From assembly GCF_055900595.2 (NCBI RefSeq), contig NZ_CM148325.1: a stretch of 64,000 bases of DNA, one strand, 5' to 3'. Below, one piece after another: positions 55,392-55,505 of the stretch. How positions within the stretch are numbered: the stretch's first letter is position 1; the number at the start of each line of letters is the position of its first letter. The notes beneath the pieces are model-generated. The model made no database searches. It had not been told where the DNA came from and saw only the letters and a list, made by a program, of their open reading frames with translations. The position numbers and the translations under genes were made by a program.

Positions 55392-55505
55392 TATCCGCGA
55401 TCGCGGATATCACAGTGTTTATCCCGTAGAGCGGATAAGATGTGTTTCCTGATTGACTTTATCCCCACTAAAGGATAAAACTGATAATATCCCCTTGAAC
55501 GGATA
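55392..55505. promoter_or_regulatory. hipBA promoter with four HipB operator palindromes (TATCC-N8-GGATA)
   Basis: TATCCgcgatcgcGGATA (55392-55409), TATCCcgtagagcGGATA (55420-55437), TATCCccactaaaGGATA (55460-55477), TATCCccttgaacGGATA (55488-55505). Confidence 0.85.

What the first reader, a model, noticed from the sequence alone, without database searches (positions are those of the whole stretch)
55392..55505. Four perfectly spaced HipB operators upstream of hipBA
Four TATCC-N8-GGATA palindromes are spaced regularly in the 115 bp upstream of hipB, the first a perfect 18-bp palindrome. This is the classical hipBA autoregulatory architecture and indicates an intact, regulated toxin-antitoxin module.
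Basis: partly seen in the sequence, partly recalled or inferred. Interest (0 to 1): 0.3.

Follow-up and report, generated by a model that had tools for sequence, protein, structure and literature searches.

The report
Known HipB operator array of hipBA
These are the four well-known binding sites through which the E. coli HipB antitoxin shuts off its own hipBA toxin-antitoxin operon; they are intact here and differ from the K-12 textbook version only by one common extra base pair in the middle.

Summary
The motif is real. There are four exact TATCC-N8-GGATA sites at 55392-409, 55420-437, 55460-477 and 55488-505, where 0.03 would be expected per 64 kb. The first site is a perfect 18-bp palindrome. 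The sites are not evenly spaced: the gaps are 10/22/10 bp (starts 28/40/28 apart), so they form two pairs.

This is the autoregulatory region of E. coli hipBA, first described in 1994. hipB (55527-55793) and hipA (55793-57115) are intact. HipB residues 1-72 are identical to K-12, and HipA keeps G22, S150, D291, D309 and D332. A TTGACT-17-TAAAAC promoter places one operator in its spacer and another over the expected transcription start.

Across eight E. coli alleles, none of the 40 half-site positions varies, while 14 of the other 74 positions in the array do. Distant plasmid hipBA loci keep the same motif at a 27-28 bp repeat.

The one departure from K-12 (gaps 10/21/10) is an extra T in the central gap. 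It is a common polymorphism: about 2727 genomes have 22 bp and 2057 have 21 bp.

Interest is low.

The parts
55321..55348 (+). Terminator-like hairpin (12-bp stem) just after the stop codon of the upstream autotransporter gene. It probably shields the hipBA promoter from read-through.
   Evidence: scan. It is conserved in alleles that keep the autotransporter.
55392..55409 (.). Distal HipB operator TATCCGCGATCGCGGATA (O4 in the numbering inferred from the published O1O2 oligo). It is a perfect 18-bp palindrome with a GATC at its centre.
   Evidence: Identical to K-12.
55420..55437 (.). HipB operator TATCCCGTAGAGCGGATA (O3), 10 bp after O4.
   Evidence: Identical to K-12.
55453..55458 (+). Inferred -35 hexamer TTGACT at the 3' end of the 22-bp central gap.
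   Evidence: Own sigma-70 scoring: TTGACT-17-TAAAAC is the best pair (9/12). A TTGACA/TTGACT hexamer lies at the same position, 2 nt before an operator, in the Klebsiella and Enterobacter plasmid hipBA loci.
55460..55477 (.). HipB operator TATCCCCACTAAAGGATA (O2). It fills the spacer between the inferred -35 and -10.
   Evidence: One N8 difference from K-12 (C for T at 55465).
55476..55481 (+). Inferred -10 hexamer TAAAAC, overlapping the last two bases of O2. The alternative -10 is GATAAT at 55483-55488 (TATAAT in K-12).
   Evidence: Inference only: no transcription start data were available.
55488..55505 (.). Proximal HipB operator TATCCCCTTGAACGGATA (O1). It covers the expected transcription start and ends 21 nt before the hipB ATG.
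   Evidence: Two N8 differences from K-12 (TATCCCCTTAAGCGGATA).
55527..55793 (+). hipB, encoding an 88-aa Xre/Cro-type HTH antitoxin and repressor. It differs from K-12 only at A73T and N85D, both in the C-terminal tail.
55793..57115 (+). hipA, encoding a 440-aa Ser/Thr kinase toxin. Its start codon overlaps the hipB stop by 1 nt. It has 11 substitutions relative to K-12, none at G22, P86, D88, S150, K181, D291, D309 or D332.

Best explanation
This is the native autoregulatory region of the chromosomal E. coli hipBA type II toxin-antitoxin operon. A dimer of the HTH antitoxin HipB binds each TATCC-N8-GGATA palindrome, one HTH per half-site. The four sites are filled cooperatively, and HipA joins as a co-repressor in HipA2HipB2 complexes. 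One operator lies in the -35/-10 spacer and another lies over the start-site region, so occupancy excludes RNA polymerase and keeps hipBA transcription low. In K-12, complexes on neighbouring operators also contact each other through HipA, which holds the kinase inactive. When free HipB is degraded by Lon through its C-terminal tail, the promoter is derepressed. Free HipA can then phosphorylate glutamyl-tRNA synthetase and trigger growth arrest and persistence. Shown here: the sites, their conservation pattern, their position relative to a promoter-like element, and intact genes near-identical to those of K-12. Taken from the literature: binding, cooperativity, co-repression and the Lon step. 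Inferred: the exact -10 and the transcription start.
For: There are four exact sites against 0.03 expected. They align one-to-one with K-12 MG1655 upstream of hipB. The neighbouring ORFs match the lsrR-lsrK-autotransporter-hipB-hipA order of strain EC42405 in size and order. Across 8 E. coli alleles, 0 of 40 half-site positions vary, against 14 of the other 74 positions in the array (7/32 in the N8 spacers); Fisher p=0.002. The 10-bp within-pair gaps are invariant in all 8 alleles. HipB residues 1-72, the part seen on DNA in crystal structures such as 4yg1, are identical to K-12. HipB passes the equivalog model NF007271. HipA has both Pfam domains and its catalytic, autophosphorylation and hipA7 residues are unchanged. 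The promoter-like pair TTGACT-17-TAAAAC with an operator in its spacer recurs in plasmid hipBA loci of Klebsiella and Enterobacter (HipB about 60% identical). Those loci, and those of Pantoea, Rahnella and IncA plasmids, carry 2-4 operators at a 27-28 bp repeat. Literature: consensus, four sites, cooperativity, HipA co-repression and a 70-degree bend (PMC3920265); the O1O2 oligo equals the proximal pair, and the Lon tag is residues 73-88 (PMC3376134); gaps of 10/21/10 (PMC4150777); HipA dimerisation on operator complexes (PMC7029023).
Against: Nothing contradicts it. The limits are these. No binding or expression was measured for this allele. The central gap is 22 bp rather than K-12's 21. The 13-bp segment that carries an IHF-like match in K-12 is absent. 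The primary papers (Black 1994; Schumacher 2009, 2015) could not be read, so the positions of -35, -10 and +1 are my inference. The tool's own promoter scan did not list this promoter, because its rule requires a T at the last position of the -10.
Confidence: 0.95

Rival explanations
1. It is the same system, but this allele has a different set-point. The extra T lengthens the -35/-10 spacer from 16 to 17 bp and moves the two operator pairs from 39 to 40 bp apart. Together with loss of the 13-bp upstream box, this would give a hipBA basal level or repression strength measurably different from K-12. This does not exclude the best explanation.
For: The 1-bp indel lies between the -35 and O2. A 17-bp spacer is the sigma-70 optimum (general knowledge) and is also the spacing in the Klebsiella and Enterobacter homologues. 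The two forms are both common: 2424+303 genomes against 2057. The 13-bp box is found in 1873 genomes, close to the 21-bp count, and the same top records appear in both lists.
Against: There are no expression data. A 1-bp change between the operator pairs may be absorbed by DNA bending. All four operators and both 10-bp gaps are unchanged. The linkage between the two features rests on similar counts only, not on a per-genome comparison.
Confidence: 0.25
2. The operators are intact, but the module is a silent or disabled remnant, for example with an inactive HipA or HipB variant, so the array no longer regulates anything of consequence.
For: hipBA is missing or truncated in some E. coli: 567 of 5426 genomes had no match, and hits H29 and H30 cover only part of the region. 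HipA here carries 11 substitutions relative to K-12.
Against: Both ORFs are full length with the 1-nt stop/start overlap. No key residue has changed. The HipB protein of the strain with the identical 218-bp region (EC42405, WP_001296726.1) is also annotated in the five other E. coli alleles sampled that keep the upstream autotransporter. Invariant half-sites indicate selection that is still acting.
Confidence: 0.03
3. The palindromes are chance occurrences, or are sites for something other than HipB, such as a repeat element, a restriction/methylation target or another regulator.
For: The distal site contains GATC and CGATCG.
Against: 0.03 sites are expected against 4 found within 114 bp. The motif is identical to the footprinted HipB consensus. 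It travels with hipB homologues across genera and on plasmids. There are no other copies in the window.
Confidence: 0.01

Closest known systems
E. coli K-12 hipBA promoter/operator region (Black, Irwin & Moyed 1994; Schumacher et al. 2009, 2015)
   Same: It has four TATCC-N8-GGATA operators in the same order, with 10-bp gaps within each pair and the same half-sites. Two of the four operators are identical. The distance to the hipB ATG is the same (21 nt), the hipB/hipA overlap is the same, and the flanking autotransporter gene is the same.
   Different: The central gap is 22 bp against 21, from one extra T after the -35 TTGAC. There are three base changes in the N8 spacers of the two proximal operators. 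K-12's TATAAT is GATAAT here. A 13-bp segment upstream of the distal operator is absent. A SNP turns an in-frame TTG 18 nt upstream of the hipB start into ATG.
Plasmid-borne hipBA of Klebsiella, Enterobacter and Pantoea (HipB about 60-67% identical; e.g. the K. michiganensis plasmid hipBA, PMC11487325)
   Same: They use the same TATCC-N8-GGATA motif with a 28-bp start-to-start repeat. A -35-like hexamer sits 2 nt before an operator, and a -10-like hexamer overlaps that operator's end.
   Different: They have only 2-3 operators and lack the long central gap. The -35 sits inside a 10-bp gap.
Shewanella oneidensis hipBA (Wen et al. 2014, PMC4150777)
   Same: Four palindromic operators lie upstream of a hipB-hipA pair, and a HipB HTH dimer with HipA assembles on the DNA.
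   Different: The motif is GTGTA-N6-TACAC. The operators are evenly separated by 34 bp, and the fourth lies inside hipB. No cooperativity between adjacent sites was reported.
IncA-plasmid hipBA-like loci (HipB about 40% identical)
   Same: There are four palindromes with an 8-bp spacer upstream of an HTH gene followed by a HipA-family gene.
   Different: The half-sites are TAACC/GGTTA, and the four sites are strictly periodic at 27 bp.

Membership tests
E. coli-type hipBA operator array | Four copies of TATCC-N8-GGATA immediately upstream of hipB | tested here: met
   Four exact matches at 55392-55505 against 0.03 expected. The consensus is as published.
E. coli-type hipBA operator array | Operators arranged as two pairs with 10-bp gaps inside each pair | tested here: met
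   Gaps are 10 / 22 / 10. The 10-bp gaps are invariant in 8 E. coli alleles.
E. coli-type hipBA operator array | Central gap of 21 bp, as in the K-12 reference | tested here: not met
   The gap is 22 bp here. This is a species-level polymorphism: about 2727 genomes have the 22-bp form and 2057 have the K-12 21-bp form. It is therefore not a valid exclusion criterion.
E. coli-type hipBA operator array | Operators overlap the core promoter | tested here: inconclusive
   The best sigma-70-like pair, TTGACT-17-TAAAAC, encloses one operator, and the next operator covers the expected +1. No start-site data were available, and the primary paper could not be read.
E. coli-type hipBA operator array | HipB (with or without HipA) physically binds the sites and represses transcription | not testable with these tools
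   This needs EMSA, footprinting or a reporter. It is inferred from HipB residues 1-72 being identical to K-12 and from identical half-sites.
HipB antitoxin (NCBIfam NF007271 equivalog; Xre/Cro HTH) | Full-length match above the curated cut-off, an HTH_3 domain, and the C-terminal W88 | tested here: met
   184.5 bits against a cut-off of 79. HTH_3 at residues 18-69. PDB hits 2wiu, 3dnv and 4yg1 at E=1e-43 to 1e-54. The sequence ends ...DLEW.
HipA Ser/Thr kinase toxin | Couple_hipA and HipA_C domains, with catalytic D309 and D332 and autophosphorylation site S150 | tested here: met
   Pfam scores of 96 and 176.5 bits. PDB hit 3dnt at E=1.6e-292. The residues are conserved.
Type II TA operon organisation | Antitoxin gene first, with the toxin gene translationally coupled to it | tested here: met
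   The hipB stop TAA (55791-55793) overlaps the hipA ATG (55793-55795) by 1 nt, as described for E. coli.

The most novel reading that the evidence does not exclude
The hipBA control region of E. coli exists as two common haplotypes. The K-12 type has a 21-bp central gap (a 16-bp -35/-10 spacer) and a 13-bp upstream box carrying an IHF-like match or hairpin. The type seen here has a 22-bp gap (a 17-bp spacer) and no box. The textbook K-12 architecture would then be the minority form, and the two forms might set different basal hipBA expression, operator-pair phasing and persister frequency in natural isolates.
Probability: 0.2. Interest if true: 0.3.

Novelty: already known. Interest (0 to 1): 0.08.

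Why it matters
It matters little beyond annotation. The result confirms that this strain carries a complete chromosomal hipBA persistence module with its full set of autoregulatory sites. The only modest added value is comparative. The half-sites and the 10-bp pair gaps are invariant, while the central gap and the region upstream of the array are polymorphic. K-12, the strain used for all the structural and biochemical work, carries the less common spacing. Anyone modelling hipBA autoregulation or persister frequency in clinical isolates should know that the promoter spacer differs by 1 bp in more than half of sequenced E. coli.

Tried and rejected
1. Primary papers: I tried to read Schumacher 2009 (PMC2764309), Schumacher 2015 (PMC7502270) and Black 1994 (PMC205607). 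None is held (two searches were malformed queries). Promoter positions are therefore inferred, and the mechanism is cited second-hand.
2. Built-in promoter scan: it did not report the hipBA promoter, because it requires a T at the last position of the -10 and TAAAAC fails that rule. I replaced it with my own scoring and cross-genus comparison.
3. Extra degenerate operators: none were found elsewhere in the window. Matches with up to 2 mismatches are at the chance level.
4. IHF consensus scan: it is uninformative statistically (19 matches against 13.5 expected in 12 kb of K-12). The K-12 match CATCAACGCCTTA lies in the 13-bp segment missing here. I could not confirm that it is the published IHF site, and in O111 the same segment looks more like a small hairpin followed by a T-run.
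5. Literature on natural hipBA promoter variation: the search returned nothing relevant.
6. Large scans: I did not run a genome contigs or metagenome scan for the operator pair. The plasmid homologues already show the cross-genus pattern, and the verdict would not change.

Full report
**Observation**

A pattern search for TATCCNNNNNNNNGGATA finds exactly four zero-mismatch sites in the 64-kb window. Dinucleotide-preserving shuffles give 0.03 sites per window and never more than one. The first site (TATCCGCGATCGCGGATA) is self-complementary at all 18 positions. The other three are palindromic only in the 5-bp half-sites. Allowing two mismatches adds nothing above chance elsewhere in the window.

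The array spans 114 bp and ends 21 nt before the hipB ATG at 55527. The one inaccurate element is 'perfectly/regularly spaced'. The gaps are 10, 22 and 10 bp (starts 28, 40 and 28 bp apart), which makes two tight pairs separated by a longer step.

**What it is**

The 218-bp intergenic region matches 4859 of 5426 complete E. coli genomes, always at hipB. It aligns with K-12 MG1655 upstream of hipB (b1508), with all four operators in the same order.

Downstream lie hipB (55527-55793, 88 aa) and hipA (55793-57115, 440 aa), overlapping by one nucleotide.
- HipB scores 184.5 bits on the NCBIfam HipB equivalog (cut-off 79) and carries an HTH_3 domain.
- It differs from K-12 only at A73T and N85D. 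Both lie in the disordered C-terminal tail, which is the Lon degradation tag and does not affect DNA binding (PMC3376134).
- Residues 1-72, the part crystallised on operator DNA, are identical to K-12.
- HipA has the Couple_hipA and HipA_C domains and matches the E. coli HipA structures at E of about 1e-292.
- HipA carries 11 substitutions, none at G22, P86, D88, S150, K181, D291, D309 or D332.

The ORFs upstream match the lsrR-lsrK-autotransporter-hipBA order of strain EC42405 in size and order, and K-12 has lsrK-yneO-hipBA.

**Evidence that the sites are under selection**

I aligned eight E. coli alleles spanning the identity classes: the window, K-12, O104:H4, O111, a B2 strain and three others.
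- None of the 40 half-site positions varies.
- 7 of 32 N8 positions vary, as do 3 of 20 positions in the 10-bp gaps and 4 of 22 in the central gap.
- Half-sites against the rest of the array gives Fisher p=0.002.
- The 10-bp gaps are invariant in length.

In a B2 strain that lacks the autotransporter, homology begins only about 20 bp upstream of the distal operator. The array therefore marks the left edge of the hipBA unit.

**Promoter**

The tool's promoter scan misses this region because of its -10 rule. My own scoring gives TTGACT (55453-55458), a 17-bp spacer, then TAAAAC (55476-55481) as the best sigma-70-like pair. The third palindrome fills the spacer, and the fourth lies where transcription should start.

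The same layout recurs in plasmid hipBA loci whose HipB is only about 60% identical. Klebsiella has TTGACA-17-TAAAAC and Enterobacter has TTGACT-17-TAAACA.

Those loci and others keep the motif at a 27-28 bp repeat but with different copy numbers:
- Klebsiella: 3 operators.
- Enterobacter: 2 operators.
- Pantoea: 3 operators.
- Rahnella: 4 operators.
- IncA plasmids: four TAACC-N8-GGTTA sites, one every 27 bp.

The conserved unit is therefore the operator pair about 28 bp apart. The long central step is particular to the E. coli chromosomal locus.

**Mechanism**

The following comes from the literature. HipB, a Cro/Xre-type dimer, binds the four operators cooperatively and bends each by about 70 degrees. 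HipA acts as a co-repressor in HipA-HipB2-HipA complexes (PMC3920265; PMC3376134). The O1O2 oligonucleotide used in binding assays is the reverse complement of the promoter-proximal pair, which is how I number the sites. HipA-HipA contacts within operator-bound complexes are thought to restrain the kinase, and the hipA7 change G22S weakens them (PMC7029023). Free HipB is degraded by Lon.

Sequence identity of the reading head and of all half-sites makes it very likely that the same mechanism holds here. That step is an inference and was not measured.

**Difference from K-12**

K-12 has gaps of 10/21/10 (PMC4150777). The window has one extra T between the -35 and the next operator, so the gap is 22 bp and the -35/-10 spacer is 17 bp rather than 16.

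Short exact-word searches count the 22-bp form in 2424+303 genomes and the 21-bp form in 2057. The window therefore carries the more common spacing. Its exact 218-bp allele is rare, however: only 16 records match at 99% identity or more.

K-12-type alleles also carry a 13-bp segment (GCGCATCAACGCC) upstream of the distal operator, and the window lacks it. That segment is present in 1873 genomes, close to the 21-bp count, and the same top records appear in both lists. In K-12 it contains a 12/13 match to the IHF consensus. Such matches are not above chance, and I could not check the published IHF site. Whether these differences change expression is unknown, and I found no paper addressing it.

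**Verdict**

The feature has been known since 1994 and has been characterised structurally. It is an ordinary, intact hipBA control region. Interest is low. The only mildly new point is the common 1-bp spacing polymorphism relative to the K-12 reference.

Noticed in passing
window 49844-55312 (+): An uninterrupted 1822-aa ORF for the ECSE_1600-family autotransporter lies upstream of hipBA. The same gene is the pseudogene yneO in K-12, has an internal stop in strain EC42405, and is frameshifted in O104:H4 and O111. It may be intact in this strain.
   Followed up: partly
window 55458 (T run in TTGACTTTATCC): A 1-bp T indel makes the central operator gap 22 bp and the -35/-10 spacer 17 bp. K-12 has 21 and 16. 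About 2727 E. coli genomes carry the 22-bp form and 2057 carry the K-12 form.
   Followed up: yes
window about 55375 (between the autotransporter terminator and the distal operator): The 13-bp segment GCGCATCAACGCC of K-12 and O111 is absent. In K-12 it holds a 12/13 IHF-consensus match, and it also forms a GGCG/CGCC hairpin followed by T's. It is present in 1873 genomes. The window has no IHF-like match with 1 mismatch or fewer in 55300-55530.
   Followed up: partly
window 55509-55511: A SNP creates an in-frame ATG 18 nt upstream of the annotated hipB start, which would give a possible 94-aa HipB beginning MLWTYDMMSF. K-12 and most alleles have TTG at this position. NCBI annotates the 88-aa form in the strain with the identical region.
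   Followed up: no
window 55399-55402: A GATC (Dam methylation site, inside CGATCG) sits at the exact centre of the distal operator. It is kept in all 8 alleles, even where the neighbouring base varies. No role is known.
   Followed up: no
window 57116-64000: The region downstream of hipA is a rare variable island instead of K-12's yneL and ydeT fimbrial genes. It holds an orphan MbcA/ParS/Xre-family antitoxin gene (57807-58001, minus strand), a 508-aa ORF (58951-60477, minus strand) that corresponds to a gene annotated 'hypothetical protein' in strain E500002, and an ankyrin-repeat protein (61170-63143, plus strand). IS481 and alpha/beta-hydrolase remnants are annotated in the near-identical strain E500002. 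Only 6 of 5426 genomes cover 80% or more of it. EC42405, whose hipB upstream region is identical, instead has a SIR2-family gene and an ISNCY transposase here.
   Followed up: partly
L007 (E. coli JJ1887, phylogroup B2) 1-420: In this B2 strain the autotransporter is absent and tam abuts hipBA. Homology with the window begins about 20 bp upstream of the distal operator.
   Followed up: partly
L013 (IncA plasmid pRSE15) 396-494: IncA-type conjugative plasmids carry a hipBA-like pair (HipB about 40% identical) preceded by four TAACC-N8-GGTTA palindromes exactly 27 bp apart. This is a strictly periodic variant of the operator array with a changed half-site.
   Followed up: partly
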